Below are positions 33,793 to 60,216 of a DNA stretch of 64,000 bases, one piece after another; position 1 is the first letter of the stretch; every line of letters begins with the position of its first letter. The stretch spans positions 1,674,001-1,738,000 of the forward strand of contig OZ037834.1 of assembly GCA_964035575.1 (NCBI GenBank), read 5' to 3'. Source of the DNA: Rhynchopus sp. YZ270_cl-10 (taxonomy: Eukaryota). The position numbers and the translations under genes are program-made. The notes beneath the pieces are model-generated. The model worked only from the letters and a program-made list of their open reading frames with translations, did no database searches and was not told the origin of the DNA.

Positions 33793-36246
33793 ATGGCTTA
33801 CACAGAAATAATGCTTTTGATGCTGTGTGTCGTGCGATGTGCGACTGGGGAGTGTTATAGCCCGGACATTATTTTTTCATTTTCCTCGTCAGGCGTGCAT
33901 GCTGCTGTGTCAAATTCGGGGCACGACGTTGCCGTGTGCGCGACAAAACCGCTGGCAGGTATTGGTGTGTCGGAGACGGGCGGTCTTGATGGATCTTTTG
34001 GGACAAACTTCGCTGCAGTGCTCCCTTCATCACGCTTTGGGAGTGGTGCTGTCCCTCTGGTCCTCTCCTCCCCCGACCCATGCGTTGGCATAGCCGCTAG
34101 TATCATGCAACGAGTCGTCGTCCTCCGAGACACAGGGTTCCACCCCACCGTCCACGTCTACCACCTCACCGGACAGTCCATCACCTGGGGTTCCATTCCC
34201 GAAATAAATTCTGCAGATCTCCCTGGGGTGGAGGTGCACTTTACTAAGTCAGGAGGGGATGTCTTCCATGTATGGACAAAGGGGGCGAATTCTTTGATAG
34301 TCTTTTATAAGGCAGAGGATATGACGAAGGTAGGGCATTTAGATGGGAAGGGTGTGAAGGGTGTGCAGTACTCTTCAGGCGCTGTGTATATTCTGTATTC
34401 CAGCTTCTATGAGAAGCGGCTTGTCAGTCTATCCATGGAAGGACCACCGGTGTACCGTGTAGATACTCCAGAAGCAACGAACACCGTACTGACGTATGCG
34501 GGGAGGGGGGACTACATCGTGGTGGCAGCAACTACATACTCAATGTACAACGAAGGTGTTCTCAAGTCTAGCACGCCCACGCCGTTAAGGGGACAGTACG
34601 TTTCTGGGGGGATTATGGGGATAGATGGTGTGTGTCCGTACCTCAAGGAGGATGGGTCTGTGGTATTGACGTCTGTTGACGATACAGGCTTGGTTGCAGA
34701 TATATGTGGTCACCAGGCAGCCTCAGTGTCCTTCGGGGGGATGTCCCGGAATATGGTGTTCGTCGCGAAGGGGAGAGAGGAGTTCTGGTTGATGGTGGTG
34801 CCCAGTACTCTGACCCCAAAGGTGTTTCTCACAACGCTTGCGCCTCCCACAAAATCGCCGACAGCCGCACCCACTTCTATGCCAACCGTTGTACCAAAGG
34901 GTTGTACGGCACCACACCCTGTTCATGCTTCAATCAATGCCTCCCGGTCAACTGCAATGTCCCATGACGCTATTGCGGCATGTGAAGGAGGGAAAGGAGA
35001 GTCAGTTCTGGTGTGGTACCCACGCAGTCCACAGGGCAGTCCGACAGAGGATGTAACCTCGTATGACAGCCTGGGTTCTTGCTCGCTGGTTGGCTTTGCA
35101 CCAGATGGCAGTCTCGCGGTGGTGTTTGAGGTGGAAAGGAGGGTCTACACTTTGGCGGTGGGGTCATCCGCATCGTCTTTGGTGGAGGTGGCTGAGGTGC
35201 CGTGTAGTGTGTATGTTGTTGGGGTGCACACGGATGGACGCTTTGTGATAGTGTCGTGCAGCGATAAGATGGTTGTGTTCGATGCGAACTACTCCTATAA
35301 AACTGTTCTCGAGGAGACTATGTTTCCACAAAAGTGGCATTTTTCGACATCTCTTTCCTCTGATTCAAAACTATTCGGTATAGCCAATGAAACAGACGTC
35401 TACATCTGGCAGCTCTACACTCGAGAAAGCGGTCCCTTAAAACCGGTTTTATCAGCGGTCATCAAAGGGTATAATACCCCGATTTTCGCTTTCTCTTCAA
35501 CCGACCCCGATGAGATTGCCGTCGCCACCTCCACCGGCATTGAAATCCTTTACGTTGCATCCCTCCGCGCAAAGTTCTTCATCGACTGCAGCAGACCAAG
35601 CTATTTAGAATACCTTCCGAGAGGGGGGTTTCTTGTTGCAGTGGATTTTGATGCGACGAAGTTGACCTTTTGGAATACCTTCTTTGTAGCGTCGCATACC
35701 ATAGACTTCTGTGTCCCGTATGTATCCACAGAGAGCCAGATTGTACGTGTGTTTAGTGGAGAAGGTGACACTCTGATTGTATCTGGTGACGACGGCTGGA
35801 CAGCGCTTAATCTTAGCTATCTCTACCCCATCCCTTTGATGCGGATTAAAACGGAGGAAATCAAGCAAAGCATTGCACCCACAACACCTCTTCCACCCAC
35901 CCAACCCCCGGTTACAGAGCTGCCAAGTCTGGCCCCAGTAGAGAGTACTAATACACCAAAGGTGGATGTGGTTGTGACCGCTGTTCCGGTTGTTCCGAAC
36001 GTATATTCTCATGCGCCAGTGGTGGATCGGGTGGATGGCAGTGAGAGTGGTGGTGATGGTGGTGGTGTCGACACAGTGTACGTCTTCATCATCGTCGGGG
36101 TGCTTCTTTGCCTTGCCGGGGCCTCGCTCCCTTTTGCCATCATATTCTGTAGAAGAAGCCACGAAAATGACCCCCTTTCATCGCATCTCAGCGAAGAGCT
36201 CAAAGAACGACCCATAGAGGAAGAGGACTTTTGCGTAATTGAATGA
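33793..36246 (+). CDS. Type-I membrane protein: signal peptide, two beta-rich (possibly propeller) domains, Pro/Thr stalks, one TM helix, short acidic tail
   Basis: The ATG lies 12 nt after CCTCCCTCAG. Signal-like MAYTEIMLLMLCVVRCATG, linkers TKSPTAAPTSMPT and PTTPLPPTQPP, TM segment VYVFIIVGVLLCLAGASLPFAIIFC-RR. Confidence 0.8.
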   Translation: MAYTEIMLLMLCVVRCATGECYSPDIIFSFSSSGVHAAVSNSGHDVAVCATKPLAGIGVSETGGLDGSFGTNFAAVLPSSRFGSGAVPLVLSSPDPCVGIAASIMQRVVVLRDTGFHPTVHVYHLTGQSITWGSIPEINSADLPGVEVHFTKSGGDVFHVWTKGANSLIVFYKAEDMTKVGHLDGKGVKGVQYSSGAVYILYSSFYEKRLVSLSMEGPPVYRVDTPEATNTVLTYAGRGDYIVVAATTYSMYNEGVLKSSTPTPLRGQYVSGGIMGIDGVCPYLKEDGSVVLTSVDDTGLVADICGHQAASVSFGGMSRNMVFVAKGREEFWLMVVPSTLTPKVFLTTLAPPTKSPTAAPTSMPTVVPKGCTAPHPVHASINASRSTAMSHDAIAACEGGKGESVLVWYPRSPQGSPTEDVTSYDSLGSCSLVGFAPDGSLAVVFEVERRVYTLAVGSSASSLVEVAEVPCSVYVVGVHTDGRFVIVSCSDKMVVFDANYSYKTVLEETMFPQKWHFSTSLSSDSKLFGIANETDVYIWQLYTRESGPLKPVLSAVIKGYNTPIFAFSSTDPDEIAVATSTGIEILYVASLRAKFFIDCSRPSYLEYLPRGGFLVAVDFDATKLTFWNTFFVASHTIDFCVPYVSTESQIVRVFSGEGDTLIVSGDDGWTALNLSYLYPIPLMRIKTEEIKQSIAPTTPLPPTQPPVTELPSLAPVESTNTPKVDVVVTAVPVVPNVYSHAPVVDRVDGSESGGDGGGVDTVYVFIIVGVLLCLAGASLPFAIIFCRRSHENDPLSSHLSEELKERPIEEEDFCVIE

Positions 36247-37257: not shown

Positions 37258-40200
37258 ATGGATCGAGCAGGCGGTGGGTTCCGCAAGAGCACCGATAGCA
37301 GCAGACGCTTCGGGACACGCAGTGTGTCGAACACACCGTCTGCGTCTGCGAAGAAGCGTGGGAGCACGCCCACGCCTGCACCGCTAAGCCTGCGGGGGCG
37401 CAGTGCTTCTCCTGTTAGCGCGGCTGCTGCTTCCCGACGCGAGCAACATCAACAACAACAACAACAACAACAGTCCACACGCGCAGCATCGCAACAACAG
37501 GTCCAGCAACATGCTTTGGATCAGATCCCGACGTTGAACCGCTCTGCACCAGCTCCACCACCACCACCACCAGCACCAAAGGCGGACCCCCCCGCTCCCT
37601 CCGCTGTCGCTGTCTCTGCCTCCCCAGAAGCCCCACCATTACCTACCATGCAGGAGGTGGTGTTGGCGCAGTCCGATGAAATGCAGTCGCTCCTGGGGCA
37701 GGTGCTTCCTGGAGGTGAGCGTGCGCTCCGGCAGGAGGGGGATCCGTTCAAGTTCACAGGGACGTTACAGAATATGTACCAGCTACGTCGCCAGATCGAT
37801 GACCTGCAAGAGAGTCATAAGCGTGAGGAGGTGGCGTTGATACACAGTATGAAGCATATGATAGAGACCAATCAAGTGGAGAAGGGGCAGTTGACAGACC
37901 TCGTGGAGAACACAGAGACCAGACTGAGGAAGGAGCAAGAGGAGAAAGTGCAGGCAGTGTCGCTGTACCACCAGTTCAAGGACCAGGGGGATGGGATTAT
38001 TCAGCGATTGTATGGCATTTTTTTTGAGAATCTGTTGTCATTTTAGTGTTCAAGGGTCAAGAGGAAATGTTTACACGCTCACAAAGAGATCCCACAAATC
38101 CGTGTCGTCGTACGGAGCTTGTTTCGTCAGAAGCTCCAGCAATTCCGGGCGTCTCTGGTTTTGTTTTCTTCAAGTGTGCTGTGCCTTTTTTCTCATGTCC
38201 GGGTGAGAACGAAGTCCTCAGCAATTGGGGCAAGCACTCCTTCTTCTACTTTTCCACGAGTAGTTCGGGCATAAGGGCTGTCGCAGCCCTCAACCAACTA
38301 TCGTCATGAGCTCTTATTTTGTTTGTTATCTGCAGTCTCAAAGTTCGAAACGCGTTCTTGGCATTTTTTAAAGAGGTGGGTGAACGCTGGTATGGCATGC
38401 CAGATCGCGCGGCTGATGTTGCATTTGTATTGAGTATCGCCTCCGGAAGTTGCTTGAAATATCCTAAAAATTCTTCAGCATTGTGGGGTTTTTTGGCCTC
38501 AGAGGTTTCCTCTTCACGGCCAGGTAGTGGGAGCGTATTGCATAAAAATATCAACACGGAATATTTATTTCACACTTTACGCACAAACAAACGCACACCT
38601 CTCTGAATGTTCCAGACGAGCATCACATCCAATAACTGCAGGTACAGCAGTTGACCCTTTTTTTTGGGGGGGTTTTTTTTGCTCAAAAAATAGCACAAAA
38701 AATAAGCCTACACGACGGTGGGTTCAACGAAATGCTTCACAATACAATCCTACAGATCCACTTCCTTGACTGACCTTCAGCGGAAGTACGCCGAAGATGG
38801 GAACCGATGTGTCTTTCTCCAAAAGGAGGTCATCCGTCTCCAGCAGGAGCTCCGCACCGAACACCAGAACAGGGCTGGACTCGAAAACCAGGTATCGTTT
38901 CCACACCACCCTCACTACACCTTTCTCTGTGCACTGAGACATACTCATCATTCAAAACGTTTCTCTTTGTGACGACTAAACAACGAGAGGCTTAGCTTTC
39001 ACATACTCCCACCCTTCCCCTTTTTTTGTTCATTTACGAACTAATCATCTCACCTTTCTTTATTTCCCCTCTCCACCCCAACCACCTCCCTTTGTTTTAA
39101 AAAGAAATTCATTTCATAATTATGTTTTTTTTTGTATCCTCTAAAAACCCCTTTTCAGATCACCCAATACCAAATGCGGATGTCCACTGTCCCCGGCATG
39201 GCACACCCTTCTTTGGGTGCCCCACCACAACCACCGCCCCCTTCTTCTTCTGCACCCCTTCCTGTACATGCGATGCAGCTGCAGGACTTGATCCGCGAGA
39301 AGGACGCGACGATTGTGATGCTGGAGCGGCAGATGTCCGCGAACAACAACAACAACAACACCTCCACCCTCTCTGCCCTCAATACAACCCCTGCTGCGTC
39401 TGTGGCCGAATCGTCTGCACCACAGGACCTACACCTTCTCCGTGAGGAAGTGGACCACTGGAAGCGACGATGTGAGGTTCTACAACGCAACACGAATACC
39501 TCTTCATCACCCGACACCACCGCCAACGAGGTCCTCCTCCGCAACGACGTCGAGACCTGGAAATCCCGCTGTGAACAAACCGAGAAGGTTCTCTCCGCTA
39601 AAATGGAGGACTACAAAAACCTTATTGTGCAGCAAGACGCACGGCTCCAAACCCTGCAAAGCAGCTCTGTCGAAAAGGATTTGAAGATCAAAGGGTTGGA
39701 GGAGAAGGTGAGTTTTATTGATGTCGCGGGGCAGAATTTTTCGGGGACGGATTATGATTCTTCGAGGGTTATTGTGAGCAATCTTTTGACGGATAGCACG
39801 CCGACAGACCCGAGGCATGCAGCGTTGATGGAGAATGCGGTTGTTAAGATGTTGGTTGAACAGCTTAAAACAGAGAAACGGCATCGACTCGAAACTGAAG
39901 AGCAAAGCGACCGAATGCTGATGGAAACAAGCAAGCAGATCTCCTCCCTCGAGGACCGCCTCAAAGCCACCGACAGACGCGACCGTGACCGCGACCACCC
40001 CCGCGCAAACCGGACCCCCCGCGGCTACAGCTTCCTCCCCTCCGCCATCTCCCACCCATCGCTTCCTGTATCGCGCTCAACCTCTCCGGATCCTGAAACC
40101 CCTGAAACAGCGTCATCACCCCCACCTCCACCACCACCACCCCAAACACACCGACCGACTACCCCCGCGCCAACTCAGCCTCGACCAACTGCCTGGGAAA

Positions 40201-40895
40201 TTCCGACCCAGCCTACACCCCGTATCCCAAAAGAGGACGATGAAGAAGAGGAAGAAGGGGGCATCCGGGATACCTTATTGAGATGGCAAAGGGTGCGGCA
40301 GAGAAGCCCGCCTGGGGTGCATCAGATGGGGGTGGTCTCTGGGGCCGCTTCCGCTTCTGTTGCTTCTGCTTCTGCTTCAGCACGCCAGGTGCGTGCTGTG
40401 AGGGAGCAAGGCAGGGAGGTGTCTGCGTCGCCGTCAAGCCATTATACGCCGTCTGCTCCGACAGCTTCACCTACACTGTCGCATGCGTCGTTGCCGCATC
40501 AGATGGGGGTGCAGGTGCATGCAAACTTAGGGAGGGAAAAGAAGCGTCCAGAAGAAGATCTGCAAGAGGCAGAAGAAGAGTCGAGTATTCTGAAACGTCT
40601 CAAACGGCATTTGGACGAACCGCTTCCGGGGGTGGGGGTGGGGGTGGTGCAGCAGCGTGAGGTGAGGGCGCCGGTTGCACTTCCAGTACCGGCTGCGGCA
40701 GTGGCGGTTGGGGTAGGTGGGGAGGGGAAGGCGGTTAGTGGGGGTGGAGGAGGAGGAGGTGGAGGAGGTGGAAGCAAGTCCCACTCCCCCCCTTCCTCCC
40801 CAACGAAGGCCTGCAGCGACTCGCTCTGCGAGCTGGAGCGGCTGCTTGAGGAGCTGTCCGTCGATGTGATGCGGTCCCCTGAGAGGCAGAAATGA
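37258..40895 (+). CDS. Low-complexity coiled-coil protein; exons 37258-38009, 38756-38891, 39159-40895 (874 aa)
   Basis: Three coding-like blocks join in frame via TT|gtatgg..tacag|A and CAG|gtatcg..ttcag|ATC. Heptad-like E/Q/K/L segments and poly-P/Q/G tracts. Confidence 0.78.
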
Positions 40896-41104
40896 AAAAT
40901 CACCCTCCCATTTTTGTAAAACGTAGAACTAGAATTTTTTTCGAGCAGTTTTTCAATTATATTTTGCCATTTTTAGAGTCATATTACCAAAACGACACCA
41001 CCCACACACACCCTTTAGTTTCCTTCCTGCCTCTCTCTCTCTCTCTCCCCAACTCTTTCTTCAGAATCCTCCATCATACACGTAATCTCTGGGACTGCTT
41101 CACA

Positions 41105-44100
41105 ATGGAAGCAGAATCAGAGTCCGTTCGCTTCGGCGAGATCCTTGGGAAAAGCGACCTTCTCGGGTCGCCTCTCGCACTGTTCATGACGCTTGACACA
41201 CTTGGCATGCTTTGGCCTAGCTTGGCTTCCCTCTTTGCCCTGGTGGTGTCTGTGATCCAGCCAATCGCCTTTGTTGTGAACACCCGATGGGGCTGGGGAT
41301 GGTTTATGTCAAAGCTGTCGGAGGGTGTGTATGTCTCGCTTATCCCCTTCTGGGATCCGGTATATGTTCATTCGTGGCAGACAGTGGGTGCGGTGACGTC
41401 GTTCTGGTTGGTCACTCTTCTGATCGTTTGTGAGGCAGCGATGTTGGGGACGGTGTTCAATGGAGGTGCGGATCATACACCGAGGAAGCTGCTGGTGGTG
41501 TTGCGGATGATGGTGCATTCGACGGCGACGGTGCTGTTCACACCGATTGTGTGTTTTTTGTTGACAAGTCTTGTGTGTGATAAGGCGGGGGAGAAGCTCT
41601 GGCTTGTCCCCGACGAAGAGTGTGGCTCGCCCGTCCACATCGTGCAGTCCGTGTTGGGCATCACCACACTCGCTCTCGTGACGCTCATCGCCCTGACGGT
41701 GCGCTGCCTGCTCTACTTCCAGTCGCCCCTCTCCCTCCAGAGGTGGAGCCGTGCGCACCCCTACTGCGACGCCGTCGGGATGGTGTACGACCTCGCAACC
41801 CCGGTGCTCTACTTCTGTCTCCTCTCGCAAAGCTACGAACGCCTCTTCGCAACACTGCACTGCATCAACTCGCTAGCAATGGGTGTAATGTACGCCTTTG
41901 TGCAGCCATACTACTCGCAGGATGTGAACCTGATCCGTGCGATGGGCTACTTCACTGCGTCTGGGCTGTCTGCGTTTGTCATCGAACACCAATGGGAGTT
42001 GGTGGCGCGCGGCTACGACACGCCTGTCGTGGTCGGTATCTGTGTGCTGTCGTGGCTGCTGGCGGTCTTCTGTGTTCGGCGTGCGCGGGTGCCGCCGGTG
42101 TACTCTCATGTGATGTCGCTGGTGTACGAAGGGGAGAACCCCACGGGGCACACACCGCTGGAAAGGTTTCCTCTTGGCCTCCCCAGGAAGGACCTGCAAT
42201 TTACCCGCAGCCCTGCCCAGGTGGAGGCGCTGCTCCAGCCAGAGCGCAGCATCGCGAACGATACACCTTCGCATCTGGCCCGCGGGGCACTGTTCTTCAA
42301 CGTGTCGTACCTGCACAAGATCTACCTGCCCACCGACATCGAGGTTGCCTGCAGGTTCCTCAGGGACTATACCCTCAGGGTCGGGTCCATGCCCGCACGG
42401 CAAGACATCGGGTACTACCTGCGCATCATCACAAAGGGCCTCTGCAAGTTCCCCCGCTCTGGCGTCGTGAGGTTCCAGTACATCACCTTCCTCCACTACT
42501 ACTGCAGACACCATATGCTCGCCCTGGAGGAGCTGAGCGATTTTCTTACGTGCCCTCAGCTGGATTTGAGTTTGCTGTACTCTGCGTTCAAGCTGGGTGG
42601 ACGGCTGAAGGCGATTCTTAACATTAAGGAGACGGTGCTGCATAAGACGTTGCTGAAGGCACAGCGCATCCATATTCAGGTGTTGGGGTATATGACGATG
42701 TTTTGGATGAAGCTTATGGCCGAGAGCTTTGACAAGGAGGACCTGGCGGTGCTGGTGGACACTATCTCGGAGAAGCGTGATGAGGGGCTTGCTGCCTTTG
42801 AGATTTCGCTGAGGTCGGGCTTCACCGCGAGCATGGGGATGCGGTATGCACGCTTCCTGGAGCAGGTCATGCTCGACGAATCTGGTGCAGCCAACATCCG
42901 TGCCGCTCTCAAAGACATCCAAGGAGATACCAAACAAGACACCTCCAAAGCCTCGGAACGCGTCATGACACAGCTCGATACAGTAAAGGCCTCCGTCAAA
43001 CGCTCCTCGCGTACGACCTCGACACTTGACATCAAGATGAACATCGTCTTCATACTGTTCTTCTTCATAGTTGTGGGCTTCGGTGTGGTAGAGGTCGTTA
43101 CGTCGGCGGAAAAGCGTAATTTTATTCATAAAATTCATGTTGCAGGAAAGGCACGGAGTTTGTCCGAGTTTGCGTCGTTTGTGAGTCTCGTTTTGGTCAA
43201 GACGGCGGCGAAGGAGAAGATGCGGGACTCGAACTGCCATCGTGCGGTGTGCTCAGCGACGGGGCTGCTTGTCACGGACTATGACTGCTCGGTGTCGCAG
43301 ATCTTCCCCGAAACGATCAAGCTCCGCGACCGTTTGAAGCAGACTGCCTCTGAGTTCCGCACTGAGTTCAACAAGCTCTCCAGTGGTGTCTACAGCAGCT
43401 CGCAGGCTGACTCCGTGCACTACATGAAAGACAAGATACAACAAGTGGAGAGCTTCGAAGGCGCACCAGAAGGCGAGGTGAAGTGGCTCAGCATGTGGGA
43501 CGTCTGCACCACCCTCATGACATCTCTTGAGGCTCTCTTGGAAATTGAGGTATGTAAAGGATGTCAACAGGGATGCTATTTAAGGGCTCAGACCAGTTTG
43601 CCTCATGTCTACCCATCTCGCACTCTTTGTGGTTGAAGTGCGCCGTTCTGTGCCCAGCCTTTGTGATATTTGAGTACAGAACCCTCTTGGCGAGGGCCAT
43701 GGTCAATACAACAAAAAGCTTCAACCCACATTGAGGCGCATATTCTGCGCAAGAAGCACCCCCCCCATATTGGTTATCAAACACACACACACACAACAGC
43801 CACCCTGCTTGGAGTACGGCATCTCGCAGTCGTTTATCTTCACAAATGCAGAGAGGTCGGTATGCGTTATTCCCCTCTCTCTCTCTCTTTTACCTTCATT
43901 TTAGCCATAGATGATACACCCTAGCAATGCTTAAACATAAATAATGCTACACTCAAGAACTCAAAAAAAAAAAACCCCCCCACCATGCCACAGTTTGCCC
44001 CTATGATCAACGCAACGATGGAGATCTATGAAGACGAGTTCACAAGCCTTTTGTACATCTCCGTCTCACTGCACACTGGGCTGTTCATCATTGCGCTGTG

Positions 44101-47100
44101 CCTTCTGTACTGCGCCTGCATGATGCTTGACTTCTCCTTCCTTGAGATGGAGAACACCAAGATGGAGACGCTCAACCTCTTCGCCTTGATCCCCAAGAGC
44201 ACCGTACACTCCATCTACCTTGAGGCCAAGGATCGGCAGGGGCAAGACGAATCTAACGCCCCTAAGACTGAAGACACCGATGCGTCCAGCTCTGAACCAT
44301 CTCAAGGATCTGAATGTGAAGGCGACAAGAAGAGTGTGTCTGGGGCCTTCAAGATGTTTCTTCGCGATACCTCTAAGAGTGAGGGCAAGGTGATCAAGCA
44401 CAATCTTGCTGAACAAAACCAGGACCCAAACAGTGGTGCGACTACCGAAGAGGTCGAGGAGTTGTCTGCCATTGAGGGGGGGCAGGATGAGAAGACGCCG
44501 CTTGTGTACGTACCGGACGAGAGCAGACCACAGCGCCTGCGTGCGATGCTCATGGGGTCGTCGCTGTTGGTCTCCTTTTGTCTCCTGGGAATGCTTATCT
44601 TCGGGTTGATGCTCGCCACCACATGGATCGAGGCCGTGGAGAAGATTCAGTCAGTGCAGGGCATGCAGCATTCTCTTGCCAGTCTGACCTTCGACGGTAT
44701 CGTGTATGCACAGAAGTATCAGGATACCTGCAAAACGGAGTACTTCGGAAGCTACGGAAAGGTGCTGTACACCCTGGAGGATAGCGACCCGCTGGGGGGT
44801 TTGCAGCGGGAGTACGGGCACGAGGTTGCGCATATGCAGGAATTGCATCAAATTATTATGAATGAGCAGAGTGAGCGGATGACGGCTGCGAGGTTGGCGT
44901 GCGCCAAGGGTGAGCAGCACGCGTCAGCTGTGTTACTTCGTTCACACGAGATCACACAGTTCGTGGAGGAGCTGCTTGCGCTTGACCGGCATGCTCCAAG
45001 CGACGAGATCCATACACTGTTGACAGTCATAATAGTGTTCAGCGTGTTGCTTGCTGTTTTGAGCACAGCCAAATCCTTTGCAGGCGACCCTTCTACCCCT
45101 ATTGTGCACACCTACGGACTGCGCCTGGTGTCCCTCCTCTGCTTAGGTGTTCTCGTGATGTGCATCGGTGCGCGGCAGGACCACGAAAACCTTGATGACG
45201 CCTTCCTCAGCAACGATATGCGTATCAGCCTCGAGCAGACGCGCTTCCACTTCATCGTTCTCTTCGATTCCCTGCACAACTGGCTGATCGTGGGTGAGAC
45301 CTCATGGCTGGCGAAGTACTTCAGCATCATCGGCGAGAAGGTGTCCCTCCTCGCACCCCTCGACCACACCTACCAAGGCCTGTCAGAGAACTTCGGGAAG
45401 AAGCTTGAGTTCAACTCTGTCTACGAATCACTCGCCATGGTTGAATACCTCAACGACATTGTCATCGTGTTGAACCTCAACCTGACGCGAGAACTCTACC
45501 TTGAGTACGAGACACGTGACGATCTCGACATCCCGCACTTGTTCAAGGACTTTAGGTGGGACAGTGCGACAGACTACTCGCAGGGCTACCACCCGCCCTA
45601 TTCCAACTACAACACAGACATGAAGTTGAATGCAACAGAGCGCCTGGATCTGTCCTGGAAGATCCTCAAGTCGGGCTACTACCTGCACCAAAGGGACCGC
45701 CTCTGGGAGGACTTCGCAGCGCTCTCAGAGATTCTCAGTGGAGACACGACCCTGGAGGTTGCGGAGACAAAGTACGACTGGGGTAGCACGTTTATAGCAG
45801 CGATCCTGCTTCAGTCCGTTATATCGTTGATTCTACTTGTGGTCACAGTGAGCACAGTTGTGCGTGGGTTTAAGGAGGCGATTGTTGCTAATGGGTCCAA
45901 GGGGAATAAGAGCCCTGTCCTGATCTTTGGAAAACACATGTTCCGTGTGAAGGTGTCGCTCCTGTTGGTGGCGGTCTTTGTCGTATCAGTGTTTGTACTG
46001 CAGGTTGTGACTGTAATTGATTTGGCAACGCTTCCGGCACTGCTGAACAAGGCGTCTGTGCGGTCGTGGTACTCTGCGAAGTGTGCGCTGTCGGGGGAGC
46101 GCTTTTTGCATGTGGACCATGGCGACGACTTGCAGCATGAAGTCACGAAGCATGCGATCATAAAGAGCAGCGAGCTCCTGCGGAGGGGTGTGGACACGTT
46201 CTATTTCAGTGTGCCGGGGTCGACGGCGTCGACGATGTTCGACCCAAGCACGAAGACGGACCACCGTATGCAGTGTGCCTCACCCTACACCGCAGTCAGC
46301 GACTACGGCGACGTGGAGACACGCAAATACCTGCACCTGCTCTTCGCAGCGGAGAACAAGGCCTTCACCACAGAGAAGGAGGAGGCCCTCGCTGTGCGAA
46401 CCAACGTCGACAGCATCCTTGCCTCCCTAGCTGAGTCCACCCTGCAGCTCAAAGACAAACGCCTCAAGGATGTCGACAGCACAGAGTTTGTTGTCCTCGT
46501 CCTCCTCGTTGTCACAGTCCTGACACTCACAGTGGAGGCTATCTTCGTCTTCCGCCCCATGACCTCGAAGCTCCTGCAGCAGCAGGAGGGGACAAAGCTT
46601 ATGCTCAAGATGATTCCAGAAAAGGAGCGGCAGACGGTGGGTGCCATTGTGCAATACCTGGAGACCGGCCAGATCTCGAACAACAAGAAGCTCAGCGAGG
46701 TGAACCAGGTGGTGACGAAGATATCCACGGTGCCTACGATTGTGATTGACCCATATGGGAAGATCCTTCTCTTCAGCAGGGCGTCTGTCGAGGTGTTTGG
46801 CTATGAGGAGCGCGATGCGCTTAACAAGAACGTCAAGATGCTTATGACCGAGGAGCACGAGCCGTACCACGACATGTACCTGGCACGCTACAGGAAGACC
46901 GGCATCAAGCGTATCATTGGGTCGTCACGCAACTCGAAGGCGACGCGGAAGGATGGTAGTGTCTTTCCGATCAATGTTTCGGTGCATGAGTTCCGGCAGG
47001 GCAAGAAGTCTGTGTACATCGGTTTTGTGTCGGACATCTCTCTCGATATCGAGACCGAGCACGTCCACCAGCTCAGCAACGCTACCAGCCGTGCCAGCAC

Positions 47101-50100
47101 GATCCCCGTTGTGTGCATCGATCTCAGAGGTGTCATCGTCCGTTGGAACCATGCCGCTGCAGAAGCCTTTGGATACAGCGCAAAGGAGACTCTCAACCAC
47201 AACGTCAAGATGCTCATGAAGCCGGAGGTCGCTGAGTGCCACGACCAATACCTGGAGAAGTTCAAGCGCACCCCGTGTGGGAAGTCGAAGCTGGTAGGCA
47301 CCGGGACAAAGATCACTCAAGTGGCGGTGCGCAAGAATGGAACGCAGTTCTCAGTCGAATTCTTCCTCGAGGAGGTGCGTCTCGGGCAGGATACTGTCCT
47401 CATCGCGAATCTGCGTGATGTAACGGATGAGTTCAAGATCCAGCAGATCATCTCTGTTCATGAGACCATCATCCAGACCACACCCATCCCGTTGATCGTG
47501 GCCAACACGCTTGGCATCATCCAAAAGATCTCTCCTGCAGCAGAGCGTGAGTTGGGGTGGAAGATGGCAGACCTAGTGGGGCAGAACATCACCGCCATCC
47601 AGGAAGACGAGATCGCGGCCCGTCACGACCAGATCCTTGCGACCTACATGAAGACAGGGAAGAAGAACATCATAGGCTCGACACGCAAGGTCAAGGTGAA
47701 GCGGAAGAACGGTGTTGTCTACACTGCAGCCATTCATGTACGCGATGTGGTGAGCAAGGAGGACAATGTGAAGTTCCCGCCTGTCTTCATTGGGTATCTG
47801 GTGAACCAGACGGAGGAGAACCGGAAGGATGACCTGCGGAACATTGCCTTGGCGACAATTGCGTTGTGCCAGCATCCGGTTATTGTGTCGAACAACGAAG
47901 GTGTCATTGAAATTTTCTCCAAGTCAGCAAGCGAAGTGACCGGCTACGCGAGCGAAGAGGCAGTGGGGCGCAACGTCACGCTCATACAGCCTCTCGAGGC
48001 CGCAGAGAAGCACCCGGGCTACATCGAGCACTATCTGCAAACCGGCGAGCCACGCGTCCTTGGCAAGACAATAGAGGTCCCCGTCAAACGCAGGAACGAC
48101 ACCATCATCACCTGCACCATCGAGGTGCAGGAGCTGCGCACAAAGTACGGACACAAATTCATTGCACAAATGGTCGACATCTCCACAGCGCTTGAAGCAG
48201 AGAAAATCAACAAAATTGTGTCCGTGGTGATTGCCCTGTGTCCCGTCGCATTGATCTGCATCAATGCGTCGGGGCAAATCCGTATCTTCTCCGAAGCAGC
48301 GTGCAAGCTGTTCGGGTGGGAGCAGGAGGACATCATGTACAAGAATGTGAAGGTGCTCATGCAGGAGGAGGTTGCAGAGCAGCATGACGAGGTCCTGCTG
48401 CGCTACAAAAACACCCGCAAGCAGAAGATCCTAAACACCACACAGCACCTGCCTGCACAGCGCAAGGACAACTCGCAGTTCACCGCCGAGCTGCAGGTGA
48501 GTGAGTTCATGCAGGACAGCGAATCCTTCTTTGTTGGCTTCATTACCGACTTCACTTCGCACAAAGCCTTTCTCATAGAGAGCATGATCGCGAAGTCTGT
48601 GATGCAGGGATCACGCAGTGGTATTATCAGCATCAACAGAGTGGGCATCATCGGGTTGATGTCGCAGGCAGCACGCGAGATCTTTGGGTGCAAGGAGGGT
48701 GAGCTTGAGGGACAGAACATCAAGATCCTCATGCCAAGCCAGATCGCAGATCACCATGACGGCTACCTCAAGAAGTACATGAAGACAGGGATCAAAACCG
48801 TAGTCGGTGACGACTTCGTGACTGTCGCGAAGAAGCTCTCGGGTAAGGAGTTCTCCATCACGCTTTCGATCCGCGAGACGCTTCTGACCTCACTCAGTGG
48901 TGCGAAGTACGAGGCCTTTGTGGGCTACCTCACTGACAACTCTTCGCAGTGCATGATCCAGGAGAACACCATCCTCAACGAGGCGTCGGAGGGCCTCGCG
49001 TACTTCCCTATCGTGGTCATCACCATTACCGGGAAGATTGTCAGCTTCAACAAACACGCATGCAACACCTTTGGCTTCAAGGAGGAGGAGGCCGTCGGGT
49101 CGAACGTCAAAATGATCCTCCCACCCGAGATCGCAGAACACCACGACGGCTACCTCGCGCGATACAAGAAGACAAAGGTAAAGCACATCATCGACTCTTC
49201 GCGCAAGGTGACCGGCATGAAGAAGGACGGCACACTGTTCCCCATTGAGGTCTTCGTGCGCGAGGTTGTGCAAGACGGGAAGGCAACGTACTATGGAAAC
49301 ATCCACGACATCTCAGAGCAGCTTGCCATCGAATTCGCAAAGGAGGTGATGGACACAGTGCTGATGCAGTCGAACCAGCCTATCATCTCCATCGACGAGT
49401 GGGGGAAGGTGCTCTGCTACAACAGACGCGCGCAGGCTGTGTTCGAGTACAACGAGAGGGAGGTTATGGGGAAGAACATTAAGATGCTGCAGCCACAGGC
49501 AGTGGCTGATGCGCATGACGAATACCTCGCGGCTTATAAGCGGACTGGTATTGCAAAGGTTGTGAACACGGTGCGCACGGTGACGGGGAAGCGGAAGAAC
49601 GGACGCCCCGTGGGTGTGACGCTGAACGTGAAAGAGCTCTTCTGTGAGGAAAAGCGGGTGTACGTGGGCTTCCTCATTGACGACGAAGAGGAGCGTGCTG
49701 CTAAGCAACAGGAGCTTGCGGGCAAGGCGCTGCTGAAGGGCATGCTCACACCCTGCCTCCGCATCACACACCTGGGCGAAATCGTACAGGCCTCTGACTC
49801 CGTCGCCATCTGCTTCGGTTATTCCGAGGAGGAGCTCCTCACCATGAACGTCAAAGAGCTCCAACACCCCGAGATCGCAGAGAAGCACGACGGCTACCTT
49901 GCACGTTACCTCAAAACAGGCGTGCAGCACGTCCTCAAGCAGGAAAGCCGCACCACAGGGCGGAGACGCGATGGCACAATCTTCCACTGCCTCATCTCCG
50001 TCAAAGAGATTGCGACAAAGAACGCCAAGGAGCCGTTCTTCGTCGGCTTTGTGAAGGACCTCACGAACGAGCTGAAGAGCGCACAGCAACACAACATACT

Positions 50101-53100
50101 CAAGAAGATCCAAGACATCTCCGTGGGAAGCCTGTTCGAGATGGACGAGGCCGGCATCCTGCGTGGCATGAACGCCTCTGCAGAGGCTCTCTTTGGCTAC
50201 ACCAAGGCAGAGCTCGTTGGGAAGAAGGTCAACACCATCCAACCCGACGAGATCGCAGAAGTGCACGACCGCTACCTCGAGGAGTACAAGAAGAACAAAG
50301 TGCGGCACATCATCGGGAAGGAGCAGCTCCTCAAGGGAAAGGCCAAGTCGGGGAAGCTCCTGAACGTCTTCGTTGACGTGCGTGAGATTACCGTGAATGG
50401 CTTCCCGTCGACGTACGTCTCTTTCATCCGCGATGCTGACGTAGCCCTGGAGGCTGCAAAGATGGACAAGGTTATTGAGGTGTCAATTGCGTCGTTCCCC
50501 TTCCCGTGTGTGATCTGCTCCACCACAGGCGACATAGAGAGCTGCTCAAACTCCTTCAAAACTGTGTTCGAATGCGAGTCCCCTATTTCGATGAACATCA
50601 AGGAGTTCATGCCTGTGGAGACAGCACTGAACCACGACGGCTACTTGCAGGCGTACCGCAACACCGGCAAGCAGACCGTCATGAATAAGTTCACAAAACT
50701 GTCTGGTCTCTCGTTCACAAGCAAGGTTATCCCCATTGAGTCGTGGATCACTGAGGTGAAGGTCGAGACCGAACATAAGCTCATTGGGTACCTCCGCGAT
50801 ATGACACCAGAGCTGCTTCAGAAGAAACACGGCCTGTTTACAGAGCACGTTGCACAGTGTGCGCCTGTTGGGATGCTGTGCATCAACAGCGTGGGCGAGG
50901 TTCTTAAGGAAAACATCGCTGCCCTGAAGCTCATTGGGCGGTCTGTGGTGGGGACGAACGTGCGGGAGATCATGCCTGAGCCATACAGGTCGGAGCACAG
51001 CGGGTACCTGCAGCACTACATGGACACAAAGGAGAAGCGGGTGATTGGGAAGACAACGTTGGTGTCCTTGCTGAACGAACAGGGCAAGCAGATTCGCGTG
51101 TCGCTGATGGTGTCCGAGATTGATTTGAACATCTCGGACCCGGTGTTCCTTGGGTCGTTGACGGACTTATCAGATTCGGACTACATGGACTATCTCGAGA
51201 AGTTCAATGCTGGTGTTGAGTCGCTTGTGAACGAAGCTGTCCTCTGCATCGACCTCTCAGGTCGTGTGCTCCGCTTCAACGTGCGTGCCGAAGAGATATT
51301 CGGCTACCGCAGCGACGAGGTGCTCGGGAACAACATAAAAATGCTCCTGAGCAAGGACATCGCAGACAAGCACGATGGCTACCTCGAGCGCTTCAACCAG
51401 GTATGTCTTTTCCTGCGCTTCAATGGTGTCATTTTCCCCCTAGTTTTTTTCTGCCCGGATTAGCGACTCAGGGATGCTCCATTACCTCTCCCACTGCAAA
51501 ACGGGCAGACGCCCTGCATCACGCAGACTTAATTAACCTGCGTTTCCAATAATCCCTGATCAGAGAGAAAAACGGATTTCTGATTTTAGTGCCACGTGGC
51601 GACATCTGTTTTGAGGTTTTTATTTCATTTTATCACTATTTTACAGAGTCGTGCTTCAGCTACAGGGTTGCTGGATACCTACAGGGAAGGTGTTGCGGTG
51701 ACGAAGGACGGAAAAGAATTTAACGCAGTAGTCCGAGTTGTGGTATGCAGCTTTTACCCCCCCCCCCCCCCCCTAGGCATAGTGTGCAGACGAACATTTT
51801 TGGTTCGTCGACGAACAAAATGTTCGTCGGTTTTGTTCGTCGATGTTCGTCGACGAACATCGACGAACATCGACGAGCAGGTCCCTGCCACAAGGGCAAC
51901 CCACGACGAACAACGACGAACATCGACGAACAACGACGAACATCGACGAACATCGACGAACACTTTTTTTTTTTCCCCCCACGACGAACATCGACGAACA
52001 TTTTGTTCGTCTGCACACTATGCCTAGGGGGTTCCACCAAGGGCGTTTTGCTGTCCAAAACCCATTTTTTTGAAATTTCGGTGAAGAAACCCACTAAAAT
52101 GGGCGTGCCTGGCCGCAAATCGCCCTGGGGATCACCCATATATCCCAATAAACCACCTGACGACCTTCACAGAGCATTTCTTGTCTAAAAAAAATCGATT
52201 TTTTGTGAAAAAAAGCCCCAAAACTGCGTAACGCTCGCGTCACGCTTGGTGACCAAAATTTTACACTTGCCAAGAAATTTCTCCAATCAGACAAAACTCC
52301 TTCTGAACACCCGAAAAACACTTCAGTCCACATCTTCTGGGGTCCCGGGGTGGAAATGTATAGTTTTTGCAGCTTTCAGGGGTCCTGGGAGGGTCCCAGA
52401 CGTATTCATGAGGGTCGGAACCGCTTATAATGCCCGAATTTACCTCTTTTTTAGGGTGCTTTTTCACCTTAAAAATTCAAAAAAAAGTGCTCAGACAATC
52501 ACAGAAGTGTCCAAACCCCCTCGGAACTACTCGCCAGACCCCCTGCGGGGTGGAGAATCGTATTTGCGATCACTTTTTGGGCCATTTTGCCCAAAATAAC
52601 CCCATGTTACACTTTTGTTACACTTGCCCCAAAATAGGGTATTTTGGCCTATTTTGGGACAAGTGGGACAAAAGTGGGACACGGGGTTATTTTGGGCAAA
52701 ATAGCCCAAAAAGTGATCGCAAATACGATTCTCCACCCCGCAGGGGGTCTGGCGAGTAGTTCCGAGGGGTTTTGGACACTTCTGTGATTGTCTGAGCACT
52801 TTTTTTTGAATTTTTAAGGTGAAAAAGCACCCTAAAAAAGAGGTAAATTCGGGCATTATAAGCGGTTCCGACCCTCATGAATACGCCTGGGACCCTCCCA
52901 GGACCCCTGAAAGCTGCAAAAACTATACATTTCCACCCTGGGACCCCAGAAGATGTGGACTGAGGTGTTTTTCGGGCGTTTAGAAGGAGTTTTGTCTGAT
53001 TGGAGAAATTTCTTGGCAAGTGTTAAATTTTGGTCACCAAGCGTGACGCAAACGTGACGCAATTTTGGGGTGTTTTTTCACAAAAAATCGATTTTTTTGA

Positions 53101-53858
53101 GACAAGAAATGCTCTGTGAAGGTCGTCAGGTGGTTTATTGGGATATATGGGTGATCCCCAGGGCGATTTGCGGCCAGGCACGCCCATTTTAGTGGGTTTC
53201 TTCACCGAAATTTCAAAAAAATGGGTTTTGGACAGCAAGTCCTTAAGGATTTCCTTATACGTGGAACCCCCTACCCCCCCCCCCCCCCTTTCTTTTGTAC
53301 ACGTCAAGGCACACTCATCTTCCAAGTTTTTTTGATGTGTACATTCTGATGTCAAGACTTCAATTTGGTTGTTGCCGCGCAACTGCTGGTAACATTCCCT
53401 TTCCTTCGTGGGGTTTGCACTTCTCCACTTGGCTCCCTTAATTTAGGTGACTAAGCATGAGAGGCTTAAAGGGGGGTTGACCTGGTATTACACGACGGTG
53501 AAGTATGTTACATTACAAGTGAAGTTACTCGTATCGTTACAAGTGAAAAACCGTTACAAGTACGTTACATGTACCACCTGATTTTGCCTGAAATTAAGTG
53601 AAGTTCAGTGGTTTTTGGTGGTGGTCATGTAACATTACATGTAACCCACTTGTAACACCCGTTACTTCACCGTCGTGTAGTTGTAGTATTCGTTTTCAAG
53701 AAAGTTCTGTTGATGCGAATACACTGGTTCAGTGGAATCGCGTGGTTACTGACAAAACCACATATTCCTCAATATATCGCAACACACCACAGGAAACCCA
53801 GCTAGAAGGCACTAAGGATGTCTGCGTCCTTCTGGGGTTCGTCATGCCAACAACCTAA
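41105..53858 (+). CDS. Giant TmcB-like polytopic membrane protein with 13 C-terminal FixL-type PAS domains; exons 41105-43549, 43800-43859, 43994-51400, 51647-51742, 53793-53858 (~3357 aa)
   Basis: N-terminal multi-TM block, a TmcB-type helical region (KGLCKFPRSGVVRFQYITFL), several TM-loop-TM modules, then 13 PAS repeats (G.I...N.AA...FGY...E..G.NVK.LMP......HD.YL..Y..TG). All four introns are GTATG..CAG, phase 0. The last exon, ETQLEGTKDVCVLLGFVMPTT*, completes PAS 13. Confidence 0.9.
51776..52024. mobile_element. TA-flanked MITE with internal ACGAACATCG repeats
   Basis: TIR GGCATAGTGTGCAGACGAACA ... TGTTCGTCTGCACACTATGCC with TA on both sides. It directly abuts the foldback element to its right. 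Confidence 0.85.
52025..53273. mobile_element. 1.25-kb foldback element (about 600-bp inverted arms, almost no spacer)
   Basis: Ends TAGGGGGTTCCAC ... GTGGAACCCCCTA. ~52047-52640 is a close reverse complement of ~52650-53238; mirror-image ORFs appear on both strands in the ORF track. Confidence 0.92.
53491..53677. mobile_element. TA-flanked MITE with internal GTTACA repeats
   Basis: TA-CACGACGGTGAAGTA ... TACTTCACCGTCGTG-TA. Confidence 0.82.
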
Positions 53859-57384: not shown

Positions 57385-58132
57385 ATATAGAAGTCCTTTT
57401 TTCAACTCTCCCCCTTTTCATAACATAAGCTCCGTATATGAGTTGCAGCACTCATTCCCCCCTCCCTTTTTTTTTCCTTTCACGCGGAGTGTCAGTGCCT
57501 GCGTCCCAGAGGCGTTTTGCACTATCAACTTCACTTTCTTTTGATGATGTGCACGAGAGGGCACATGCATCTTTCAATTTTTCTCCTTTTTTTTTTCTCT
57601 TCCCTCCCCCTATTTACAGACGGTGCCTTCTACTCATTCTCACCGTTTTAGGGCTTTTGCATTTCATTTGTTTAATTTCCTATATTGTTCGATAAACAAT
57701 AAAAGGCTTAGGGTCATCTCACTGCCCGCACTAAACCTCTGACCAGTCATTTTTTTTTTTTTTTCATTTACCCTCTTTTTTTTCTGAGTTTTGTTAAATC
57801 TGATAAGGGTAGTGTAACTTTTTCGGTCTGTTACCGTTATTTTGGTGTTAGAAAAATCCGGCGGGCGGCGGAGAAAAAAAAGTTATGAAGAAAAAAAAGT
57901 TTTACCAGGGGGAAAAAAGTTATGAAGAGATTTTCTTACATTTTTCCAGAGTTTTCTTCACAGCAAAATCCTTATTTTCGTGACGTGTATCTTGTTTTCT
58001 GTTACGTGTAGCATTTTGTGTCTTCTCATTATCATGTTGCCTGGGTACCTAGGTTCCTGGACACCGGGTGCCTGGTTCCCAGAATGTCTGGGTACCAGAA
58101 AGTTAGAGGTACTACAGTGTGCACAGTGCACA

Positions 58133-58880
58133 GTGTACTGTGTACTGTGTACTGTGTACTGTGTACTGTGTACTGTGTACTGTGTACTGTGTACTGTGTA
58201 CTGTGTACTGTGTACTGTGTACTGTGTACTGTGTACTGTGTACTGTGTACTGTGTACTGTGTACTGTGTACTGTGTACTGTGTACTGTGTACTGTGTACT
58301 GTGTACTGTGTACTGTGTACTGTGTACTGTGTACTGTGTACTGTGTACTGTGTACTGTGTACTGTGTACTGTGTACTGTGTACTGTGTACTGTGTACTGT
58401 GTACTGTGTACTGTGTACTGTGTACTGTGTACTGTGTACTGTGTACTGTGTACTGTGTACTGTGTACTGTGTACTGTGTACTGTGTACTGTGTACTGTGT
58501 ACTGTGTACTGTGTACTGTGTACTGTGTACTGTGTACTGTGTACTGTGTACTGTGTACTGTGTACTGTGTACTGTGTACTGTGTACTGTGTACTGTGTAC
58601 TGTGTACTGTGTACTGTGTACTGTGTACTGTGTACTGTGTACTGTGTACTGTGTACTGTGTACTGTGTACTGTGTACTGTGTACTGTGTACTGTGTACTG
58701 TGTACTGTGTACTGTGTACTGTGTACTGTGTACTGTGTACTGTGTACTGTGTACTGTGTACTGTGTACTGTGTACTGTGTACTGTGTACTGTGTACTGTG
58801 TACTGTGTACTGTGTACTGTGTACTGTGTACTGTGTACTGTGTACTGTGTACTGTGTACTGTGTACTGTGTACTGTGTAC
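58133..58880. repeat. Perfect (TGTGTAC)n heptamer array, ~107 units
   Basis: Uninterrupted tandem repeat visible directly in the sequence. Confidence 0.98.
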
Positions 58881-59570
58881 AGAGTCCGCGGAACACCCCC
58901 GTTCACCCCGTCCCGGACGGGGGTCAATTATTTTCCAAAAACCGACCCCCGTCCCAAACCCCCGTCCAGGGACGGGGGTTTTGGATTTTTTTTGGGGGGG
59001 GAGGAGGGGCCCATATTATGGGGAATTTTTTGAGATACCATCGAGCCGGACTCAATTGGTCAAACGTCGAAGGAAAAGGAAGCACGCAGCACGGCGAAAG
59101 GAAAAAAGTAGAGTACCGTGCGCCTGCGGCGCAAGCCTGCATCACACCATTCCCGTGACATTGTTTGCCTGTAAAAATGTACAATTTTAAGCGCATTTTT
59201 TTTGAAATGTTGCGTACCGTGGCTTCGCTTGGAACCTTTGGGTGACATACCGCCGTTTCTTTTGTAAAAAAAACTGAGGTTACTGATAATTCGTGCACCA
59301 TGTGTGCCTGGTGCAAATATCAATAAAGTGCCGAACTCCGCCGACCGAGCAATTCTCACATTCCGCCGGAGGCCCCCAACTTGAGCTGGGGTGGGGACCC
59401 GGGCGCGCGAAGCGCGCCCGGGCTCGACCGAGTTTTGATCTTCTTCTTCCTGTGACTAGCTTGTCAGCGGAGAAAGCTCGGGAGAGGTTTTTTTTTTTTT
59501 TGTTTTTTGGGCGGGACGGGGGTTGGAAGGGGGTGCATAATTAATTTTCGGGGGAGGTCCGCGGGCTCTG

Positions 59571-60216
59571 ACTGTGTACTGTGTACTGTGTACTGTGTAC
59601 TGTGTACTGTGTACTGTGTACTGTGTACTGTGTACTGTGTACTGTGTACTGTGTACTGTGTACTGTGTACTGTGTACTGTGTACTGTGTACTGTGTACTG
59701 TGTACTGTGTACTGTGTACTGTGTACTGTGTACTGTGTACTGTGTACTGTGTACTGTGTACTGTGTACTGTGTACTGTGTACTGTGTACTGTGTACTGTG
59801 TACTGTGTACTGTGTACTGTGTACTGTGTACTGTGTACTGTGTACTGTGTACTGTGTACTGTGTACTGTGTACTGTGTACTGTGTACTGTGTACTGTGTA
59901 CTGTGTACTGTGTACTGTGTACTGTGTACTGTGTACTGTGTACTGTGTACTGTGTACTGTGTACTGTGTACTGTGTACTGTGTACTGTGTACTGTGTACT
60001 GTGTACTGTGTACTGTGTACTGTGTACTGTGTACTGTGTACTGTGTACTGTGTACTGTGTACTGTGTACTGTGTACTGTGTACTGTGTACTGTGTACTGT
60101 GTACTGTGTACTGTGTACTGTGTACTGTGTACTGTGTACTGTGTACTGTGTACTGTGTACTGTGTACTGTGTACTGTGTACTGTGTACTGTGTACTGTGT
60201 ACTGTGTACTGTGTAC
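59571..60216. repeat. Perfect (TGTGTAC)n heptamer array, ~92 units
   Basis: Uninterrupted tandem repeat in the same orientation as the first array. Confidence 0.98.

What the first reader, a model, noticed from the sequence alone, without database searches (positions are those of the whole stretch)
41105..53858. Giant membrane sensor with 13 tandem heme-type PAS domains and no output domain
Seen: five exons splice in phase 0 into ~3357 aa, with a multi-TM N-terminal half followed by 13 consecutive PAS repeats. Every repeat keeps the His of the HD.YL..Y motif (HD in 11, HP in PAS 4, HS in PAS 12). The protein stops immediately after PAS 13, with no kinase, cyclase or phosphodiesterase. Established: this His corresponds to the proximal heme ligand of rhizobial FixL (His200 in Bradyrhizobium), and membrane proteins with FixL-like PAS domains are known as Dictyostelium TmcB/C-like and Chlamydomonas FXL proteins, usually with only a few PAS domains. 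Inference: a membrane-anchored multi-heme O2/NO/CO antenna, gas buffer or scaffold that signals through partners or through its own TM core.
Basis: partly seen in the sequence, partly recalled or inferred. Interest (0 to 1): 0.88.

Follow-up and report, generated by a model that had tools for sequence, protein, structure and literature searches.

The report
Thirteen-haem tail replacing a receptor cyclase
This marine flagellate gene encodes a 3,357-residue membrane protein whose tail is 13 evenly spaced domains of the oxygen-sensor FixL type, placed exactly where related receptors carry an adenylate cyclase, so it is likely a non-catalytic, haem-based gas-sensing subunit of a cAMP signalling system.

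Summary
Five phase-0 exons give 3,357 aa: a TmcB-type multi-pass membrane body, then 13 FixL-type PAS domains, then a stop. The gene belongs to a conserved family in diplonemids and free-living kinetoplastids. Of 61 multi-PAS members, 36 have 13 detectable PAS. Of the 13 with shorter tails, 10 break off inside a PAS. In 30 full arrays the haem histidine is present in 390 of 390 repeats, and the spacing between repeats is exactly 36 residues at 351 of 356 junctions.

New here: the same membrane body carries one of three tails at the same junction, namely 13 PAS, one haem-type PAS, or a class III cyclase. Of 24 cyclases, 22 are complementary half-enzymes, which points to heteromeric receptors.

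Best reading (0.4): an O2-binding, non-catalytic subunit that tunes these cyclases. Haem binding, ligand and partner are all untested, and why the number is fixed at 13 is unexplained. New variant of the TmcB/FXL kind; interest 0.72.

The parts
41040..41104 (+). polypyrimidine tract and AG before the first ATG; likely trans-splice acceptor
   Evidence: sequence; the R. humris protein starts at the matching place; trans-splicing inferred
41105..43549 (+). exon 1 (aa 1-815): N-terminal multi-pass domain, TPR-like region, first half of sensor module 1
41177..42082 (+). N-terminal multi-pass membrane domain (aa about 25-326, about seven helices, with a conserved Cys158/Cys173 pair)
   Evidence: hydropathy finds 5 strong segments; AF2 model, mean pLDDT 86; no clear fold match; Atlas look-alikes are unnamed protist clusters
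42302..42937 (+). TPR-like helical region including Pfam TPR_TmcB (aa 513-611)
43022..44233 (+). module 1 (aa 640-915, spans exons 1-3): TM, helical outer domain with conserved Arg684, TM, junction helix; homologous to module 4
   Evidence: HHalign 96.4%, E 1e-9; Arg in 75 of 99; weak PilJ hit in 3 of 14 cyclase paralogs
43800..43859 (+). exon 2, 60-nt micro-exon (aa 816-835)
   Evidence: GT/AG borders; gap-free match to the R. humris transcript protein
43994..51400 (+). exon 3 (aa 836-3304): rest of the membrane body, PAS1-12 and the first half of PAS13
44546..45868 (+). modules 2 and 3 (aa 1020-1460): two further TM - outer domain - TM units
   Evidence: hydropathy; weak similarity to each other, 51.8%
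45941..46684 (+). module 4 (aa 1485-1732): TM, PilJ/NarX-like outer domain with conserved Arg1525, TM, and the junction after which paralogs carry a cyclase or PAS
   Evidence: Arg in 80 of 99; Atlas PilJ clusters 0.90
46697..53846 (+). 13 tandem FixL-type PAS domains (aa 1737-3354); His codons at 46868, 47240, 47624, 48011, 48383, 48755, 49142, 49514, 49886, 50264, 50633, 50996, 51371
51647..51742 (+). exon 4 (aa 3305-3336), middle of PAS13
51743..53792 (.). intron 4, filled with high-copy inverted-repeat elements
53793..53858 (+). exon 5 (aa 3337-3357 and stop): last strand of PAS13

Best explanation
The gene encodes a multi-pass membrane protein whose 13 FixL-type PAS domains likely bind haem and O2 and would act as a non-catalytic sensing subunit that tunes the related, likely heteromeric, TmcB-type adenylate cyclases. 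Shown: the architecture; the invariant His; the fixed 36-residue spacing; the cyclase-or-PAS swap at one junction; the complementary loss of catalytic residues in the cyclase paralogs. Inferred: (1) each PAS holds haem b through the His, as in FixL; (2) the equal-length helical linkers couple the domains into one rigid rod, so occupancy at 13 sites of unequal affinity adds up and acts on the junction helix; (3) the membrane body pairs with cyclase-bearing paralogs, either as a dead partner that holds a half-cyclase back or as part of a larger complex, so O2 changes cAMP; (4) the outer PilJ/NarX-like modules add a second, external input.
For: PAS7 matches FixL best among PDB sequences (E 7e-21) and the model overlays FixL haem domains at 1.0-1.4 A. 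His in 390 of 390 repeats, the Arg220 position Arg in 284 of 390, spacing of 36 at 351 of 356 junctions and 12 of 12 in this protein; the linkers are predicted helices of about 18 residues. A search with exon 1 alone returned 136 proteins whose tails after the same junction are a cyclase, one PAS or many PAS. Of 24 cyclases, 15 keep both metal Asp but lack the transition-state Asn/Arg pair, 7 keep Asn/Arg but lack one Asp, and 2 are complete (residue roles recalled from class III cyclases). Both half types and a 1-PAS form occur in one species (Apiculatamorpha spiralis), a half-cyclase and 13-PAS forms occur together in Artemidia motanka, and 13-PAS and 1-PAS forms in Hemistasia. One well-supported clade mixes all three tails. 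[quoted passage not shown]
Against: No haem, gas or partner binding was measured or modelled. A 1:1 pair of this protein with a half-cyclase would have no active site, so the model needs decoy action or a higher-order complex. No cyclase paralog could be shown for this organism (no genome held), and none lies in the window. No looked-up species showed all four forms (30 proteins looked up). This protein keeps the distal Arg in only 5 of 13 repeats. The arrangement of the domains is not resolved (pTM 0.41). Nothing in the model explains why the number is 13. The direct NarX comparison is not significant.
Confidence: 0.4

Rival explanations
1. It is a stand-alone homodimeric gas sensor. The haem array signals through the protein's own N-terminal multi-pass domain and TPR region, or through a partner that is not a cyclase, as supposed for output-less FXL/TmcB proteins.
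For: The N-terminal domain and TPR region are conserved in all tail types. Most 13-PAS members form one large clade with many old subfamilies (54 rows, support 0.99). Green-algal TmcB proteins also have PAS and no catalytic domain.
Against: The N-terminal domain matches no known channel or receptor fold (Atlas TRP-domain cluster only 0.84). It does not account for the complementary half-cyclases on the same body.
Confidence: 0.22
2. The array is a fixed-length rod or ruler. Haem-filled PAS domains are rigid building blocks that span a set distance (roughly 50-65 nm if extended; my estimate) from the membrane to a cytoskeletal structure, or close a ring or helical turn of 13. Gas binding would at most modulate its length or stiffness.
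For: Tail length clusters at 1600-1700 aa in 36 of 61 members and only 1 of 61 scored more than 13 hits. Spacing is invariant. The count is kept while repeat identity by position is weak between subfamilies (112 of 390 positions predicted, against 30 by chance).
Against: His and, in most members, the distal Arg are conserved as in working O2 sensors. Twelve of 61 members have longer tails with insertions or decayed repeats. No localisation data exist.
Confidence: 0.17
3. It is a membrane-bound buffer or scavenger: 13 haems store O2, remove NO, or hold and report labile haem.
For: Many equivalent His-ligated sites and no catalytic domain. Kinetoplastids depend in part on outside haem (recalled).
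Against: A 1,700-residue receptor body with external sensor-like modules is a costly anchor for storage. A buffer does not need a fixed count or fixed spacing. FixL-type haem binds O2 weakly (recalled).
Confidence: 0.13
4. The single gene is a modelling artefact: two genes, or a transcript that continues into a catalytic domain.
For: No RNA was available. The protein database holds the locus as two separate predictions of 914 and 2,492 aa.
Against: Clean phase-0 introns; an end-to-end match to a transcript-derived orthologue; many transcript-derived homologues that end 1-21 residues after PAS13; no cyclase or PAS downstream.
Confidence: 0.03

Closest known systems
TmcB/TmcC-like proteins (Pfam TPR_TmcB, PF25474); Dictyostelium tmcB
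   Same: TPR_TmcB hit; N-terminal multi-pass domain; C-terminal TM - outer domain - TM modules ending in a similar junction; a reported link to cAMP and hypoxia for tmcB (PMC12750705, passages).
   Different: In the three green-algal-type TmcB hits examined (P0189-P0191), 1-2 PAS lie mid-protein (aa about 530-940); in the two with a junction match (P0190, P0191) the chain ends 30-100 residues after it. Here there is no PAS after the TPR, and 13 PAS follow the last junction.
Chlamydomonas FXL proteins (FixL homologues; Murthy et al. 2012, recalled, paper not held)
   Same: Membrane proteins with His-ligated FixL-type PAS and no kinase; recalled to bind haem and O2.
   Different: I could not check their PAS numbers; if some carry long arrays the novelty falls. 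No fixed 13-mer or cyclase swap is recalled. No FXL sequence was compared.
Rhizobial FixL haem-PAS (PDB 1d06, 1drm, 1y28) and E. coli DosP
   Same: Sequence E 7e-21, 35-41% identity, overlay 1.0-1.4 A; proximal His and distal-pocket pattern.
   Different: FixL has one haem PAS and a histidine kinase. Here there are 13 and no enzyme, and the distal Arg varies by repeat.
Heterodimeric class III cyclases (soluble guanylate cyclase alpha/beta, mammalian C1/C2; recalled)
   Same: The paralogs split catalytic residues into complementary halves; a haem gas sensor coupled to a cyclase.
   Different: The halves sit on separate giant membrane proteins with adenine-type specificity residues, and the haem module is PAS on a separate, non-catalytic family member.
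NarX/NarQ and PilJ-type periplasmic four-helix sensors (PF13675)
   Same: TM - helical domain - TM layout and an A-G/S-x-x-R motif at the same place in modules 1 and 4.
   Different: Similarity is weak and two copies lie in one chain. Nitrate binding is not implied.

Membership tests
FixL-type haem PAS | PAS fold closest to the FixL haem domain | tested here: met
FixL-type haem PAS | proximal His on the F-alpha helix | tested here: met
   13 of 13 here; 390 of 390 in 30 arrays; 583 of 592 well-scoring repeats in the wider set. The FixL numbering (H200) is recalled; the aligned HD-x-Y motif is seen
FixL-type haem PAS | distal Arg220 that stabilises bound O2 | tested here: inconclusive
   Arg in PAS1, 3, 7, 8, 13 (PAS9 has one a residue away); 284 of 390 in the family
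FixL-type haem PAS | binds haem b and O2 | not testable with these tools
   needs spectra of purified domains
FixL (the protein) | histidine kinase output | tested here: not met
   no kinase family in Pfam; stop after PAS13
TmcB/TmcC-like | TPR_TmcB domain above the Pfam cut-off | tested here: met
   27.8 bits against 27; 30 bits or more in many homologues
TmcB/TmcC-like | N-terminal multi-pass domain and C-terminal TM-pair modules | tested here: met
TmcB/TmcC-like | PAS directly after the TPR region (as in the algal hits) | tested here: not met
   no PAS before aa 1737; the layout differs from P0189-P0191
Chlamydomonas FXL | sequence clustering with FXL1-9 | not tested
   no FXL sequence or paper was obtained
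Receptor adenylate cyclase (class III) | cyclase catalytic domain in the chain | tested here: not met
   present only in paralogs
PilJ/NarX-type sensor domain | significant match to PF13675 or NarX/NarQ | tested here: inconclusive
   E 0.004 at best in 3 of 14 paralogs; none in the window's four modules or 27 other members; NarX/NarQ profile 1.8% and 0.3% with the Arg in register; Atlas 0.90

The most novel reading that the evidence does not exclude
Diplonemids and free-living kinetoplastids run a combinatorial receptor system built on one giant membrane body with interchangeable tails: two complementary half-cyclases, a one-haem PAS and a rigid 13-haem PAS rod. The rod, fixed in count and register since before the two lineages split, sums O2 occupancy over 13 sites of graded affinity and gates cAMP synthesis by its partners. 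That would be an undescribed eukaryotic oxygen-sensing pathway and an unusual multi-haem allosteric ruler.
Probability: 0.3. Interest if true: 0.88.

Novelty: new variant of a known kind. Interest (0 to 1): 0.72.

Why it matters
How protists without HIF sense oxygen is open, and diplonemids are abundant marine flagellates of which one, Diplonema papillatum, is genetically tractable (PMC8611851, abstract listing). This family gives named candidates for sensor and output in that species' group. A tandem array whose repeat number and inter-domain register stay fixed across deep paralog splits, while the repeats diverge to about 35% identity, is unusual for PAS proteins. It makes a direct test of how signals add up along PAS-helix chains. 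The split half-cyclases are a separate, testable finding.

Tried and rejected
Expression: no RNA holder was listed. The 4 of 5 runs laid cover introns 1-3 as evenly as exons and show no intron joints, so they behave as DNA. No genome is held, so paralogs in this organism were not counted. The metagenome scan with exon 1 confirmed no locus (51 pattern matches, 0 relatives), so gene neighbourhoods were not seen. The family-profile search reached only 8 proteins.

The N-terminal model gave no Foldseek match at E 0.001 and only generic TPR or helical-bundle matches (best Z 10.3, rmsd 13). This is no evidence of a new fold. The direct NarX/NarQ test was not significant, and the Tar/Tap control scored as high on other columns. 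No complex prediction was obtained, so partner choice and dimer form are open.

The upstream in-frame ATG at 40892 was rejected as the start, because a pyrimidine tract and AG lie between it and 41105 and homologues start at 41105. Recent tandem amplification was rejected: repeats within a protein are about 35% identical, and all 13 match the same position in R. humris.

Literature: ten searches found no description of this architecture; the library lacks most subscription papers. The D. papillatum hypoxia paper has no mention of PAS domains, FixL or cyclases in its text or in 5 supplements. Three look-ups of earlier findings were empty.
Full report
GENE MODEL. The region holds two long frames (40883-43633 and 43925-51460). 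Five exons with GT..AG borders, all phase 0, join them into 3,357 aa with one stop at 53858. The start at 41105 follows a pyrimidine tract and AG. Two exons looked doubtful: the 60-nt exon 2, and exon 5 beyond a 2-kb intron full of high-copy repeats. Both are supported by the transcript-derived Rhynchopus humris protein P0171 (3,376 aa; name). It aligns at 43.5% identity, without gaps over the exon 1/2/3 joins, and ends on the same last strand. No RNA run was available. The closest named relatives are diplonemids, so the window is taken to be from a diplonemid (inference). Neighbouring genes are unrelated.

ANATOMY. Residues 25-326 form a multi-pass domain: 5 strong hydropathy peaks, and a helical AF2 model with mean pLDDT 86 from 43 sequences. 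A TPR-like region follows, with Pfam TPR_TmcB. Then come eight more hydrophobic segments in four TM - outer domain - TM modules. Modules 1 and 4 are homologous (HHalign 96.4%, E 1e-9), modules 2 and 3 weakly so (51.8%); the other four pairs were not similar. Modules 1 and 4 each carry a conserved Arg (75 and 80 of 99 members) in a motif like the NarX P-box. Evidence for a PilJ/NarX-type domain is weak and mixed: Pfam E 0.004 at best in 3 of 14 paralogs, no hit in 31 other queries, Atlas 0.90, direct comparison not significant. After module 4 come 13 PAS. PAS7 matches FixL best among PDB sequences (E 7e-21, then DosP 5e-9). The PAS1-9 model (pLDDT 74, pTM 0.41) overlays FixL haem domains at 1.0-1.4 A, with a helix of about 18 residues between domains. 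The relative placing of the domains is not resolved. FixL is listed as a haem-b binder in PMC8694187 (passages).

THE FAMILY AND THE NUMBER 13. A search with exon 3 gave 25 other proteins of the same build and no catalytic Pfam. That search favours long arrays, so I also searched with exon 1 alone (136 hits); 16 further proteins from it scored exactly 13 PAS. Pooling both sets and dropping 11 self or near-duplicate rows leaves 61 multi-PAS members, this one included. 36 scored 13 PAS, and 36 have tails of 1600-1700 aa. Thirteen have shorter tails; 10 of these stop inside a PAS, as expected of intron-blind or partial predictions, and 3 stop at a domain edge. Twelve have longer tails with insertions or decayed repeats, and only one scored more than 13 hits. 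Named members come from R. humris, Diplonema japonicum, Lacrimia lanifica, Artemidia motanka, Sulcionema specki, the Hpha (Hemistasia) and the PhM-4 transcriptomes (that PhM-4 is a free-living kinetoplastid is recalled). In 30 full arrays (31 tried, 1 dropped for scoring 12) the His is present in 390 of 390 repeats. The distance from the last strand of one PAS to the first turn of the next is exactly 36 residues at 351 of 356 measurable junctions. Repeats within a protein are only about 35% identical. Position is kept between close orthologues (13 of 13 best matches with R. humris) but weakly between subfamilies (112 of 390 positions predicted). The Arg220 position is Arg in 284 of 390 repeats but in only 5 of 13 here, so affinities probably differ along this array (inference; the role of Arg220 is recalled, and an R220A FixL structure appears).

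THE TAIL IS INTERCHANGEABLE. The only long hit of exon 1 was a protein with TPR_TmcB and a class III cyclase. It aligns along the whole membrane body up to the junction before PAS1. Among the proteins of 1,200 aa or more, that junction is followed by a multi-PAS array, by a cyclase (24 after dropping 2 near-duplicates), or by a helical insert and one PAS (12, all with the His). A few have neither or are cut short. The cyclases fall into complementary classes. Fifteen keep both metal-binding Asp but lack the Asn, and have Ala, Asp, Thr or Lys for the Arg. Seven keep Asn and Arg but lack one Asp. Two are complete, one of them from the euglenid Entosiphon sulcatum. By the recalled chemistry of class III cyclases, the first two classes need each other. 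Apiculatamorpha spiralis has both halves and a 1-PAS form; A. motanka has a half-cyclase and two 13-PAS forms; Hemistasia has 13-PAS and 1-PAS forms. No species showed all four among the 30 proteins looked up. A quick FastTree of 99 membrane bodies (1,105 columns, long branches, midpoint root) puts most arrays in one clade of 54 rows. Eight array-bearing rows lie outside it, neither cyclase class is a single clade, and one clade (support 1.0) holds one protein of each tail type. This suggests tail swapping, but no order of events is claimed.

MECHANISM. Shown: a receptor body shared with cyclases, carrying a register-locked chain of FixL-type domains in place of the enzyme. Inferred: haem and O2 binding, summing along the chain, and action on cyclase-bearing relatives through the shared body (0.4). 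The weak point is that a plain 1:1 pair with a half-cyclase is inactive, so the protein would have to be a regulated decoy or part of a larger complex. Rivals are a stand-alone sensor using its N-terminal domain (0.22), a fixed-length structural rod (0.17), a gas or haem buffer (0.13) and a wrong gene model (0.03). The fixed count of 13 is best explained by the rod idea and is not explained by the best reading; the two could both hold.

COMPARISON AND NOVELTY. It meets the Pfam criterion for TmcB-like proteins but differs in layout from the three algal-type hits examined, whose 1-2 PAS lie mid-chain. It works like FixL at the domain level but is not FixL. Chlamydomonas FXL proteins are the nearest functional precedent; that work is recalled only, and I could not check its PAS counts. 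Papers seen: PMC12750705 (passages: tmcB, cAMP, hypoxia), PMC8611851 (abstract listing, term search of text and 5 supplements), PMC7729029 (passages on kinetoplastid PAS-PGK), PMC8694187 (passages), bioRxiv 10.1101/228015 (passages: Euglena cyclase families linked to PAS, BLUF, NIT and Cache domains; supplements closed and may list such proteins). Ten searches found no account of the 13-PAS family or the split cyclases. Verdict: real, conserved, a new variant of a known kind, interest 0.72.

Noticed in passing
window 52048-53238: A near-perfect palindrome inside intron 4: two 591-nt arms, 96% complementary, 9 nt apart. Summed contig depth is hundreds of times the single-copy level, so it is a high-copy foldback-type element.
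   Followed up: partly
window 51769-52031: A 263-nt element with perfect 28-nt terminal inverted repeats and internal 10-nt tandem units; MITE-like.
   Followed up: partly
P0001, P0051, P0056, P0060, P0064, P0071 and 18 other proteins: Giant TmcB-type adenylate cyclases that split into complementary half-enzymes (15 and 7 of 24; 2 complete), which suggests obligate heterodimers in diplonemids and free-living kinetoplastids.
   Followed up: partly
P0074, P0108, P0111 and 9 other proteins: A third tail type: a helical insert and one His-bearing PAS. The D. papillatum member is annotated only as 'transmembrane signaling receptor' (KAJ9456444.1).
   Followed up: partly
P0085, P0086, P0090, P0101, P0025-P0027, P0094, P0121, P0126, P0160: Subfamilies whose arrays are partly decayed, some with His lost in some repeats or with long insertions; four of them still keep a tail of about 13 repeat lengths.
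   Followed up: no
window 58035-60330: Long arrays of a short tandem repeat, open in all six frames; not a gene as far as seen.
   Followed up: no
window 3-1805: 5'-open frame with a tyrosinase central domain (E 4e-37), unusual company for the repeated segments before it.
   Followed up: no
window 3614-5426, 9784-10569, 13795-15585, 24785-25288: Ordinary neighbours: ATP synthase alpha/beta-family subunit in at least two exons, mitochondrial carrier, protein kinase, EBP2.
   Followed up: no
window 39174-40895, 33706-36246, 37258-38046, 60638-61918: Long frames without a significant Pfam match; 33706-36246 has weak beta-propeller hits.
   Followed up: no
P0044 and P0002: The public protein collection holds this locus as two intron-blind predictions (914 aa from the upstream ATG at 40892, and 2,492 aa), which hides the true architecture.
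   Followed up: yes
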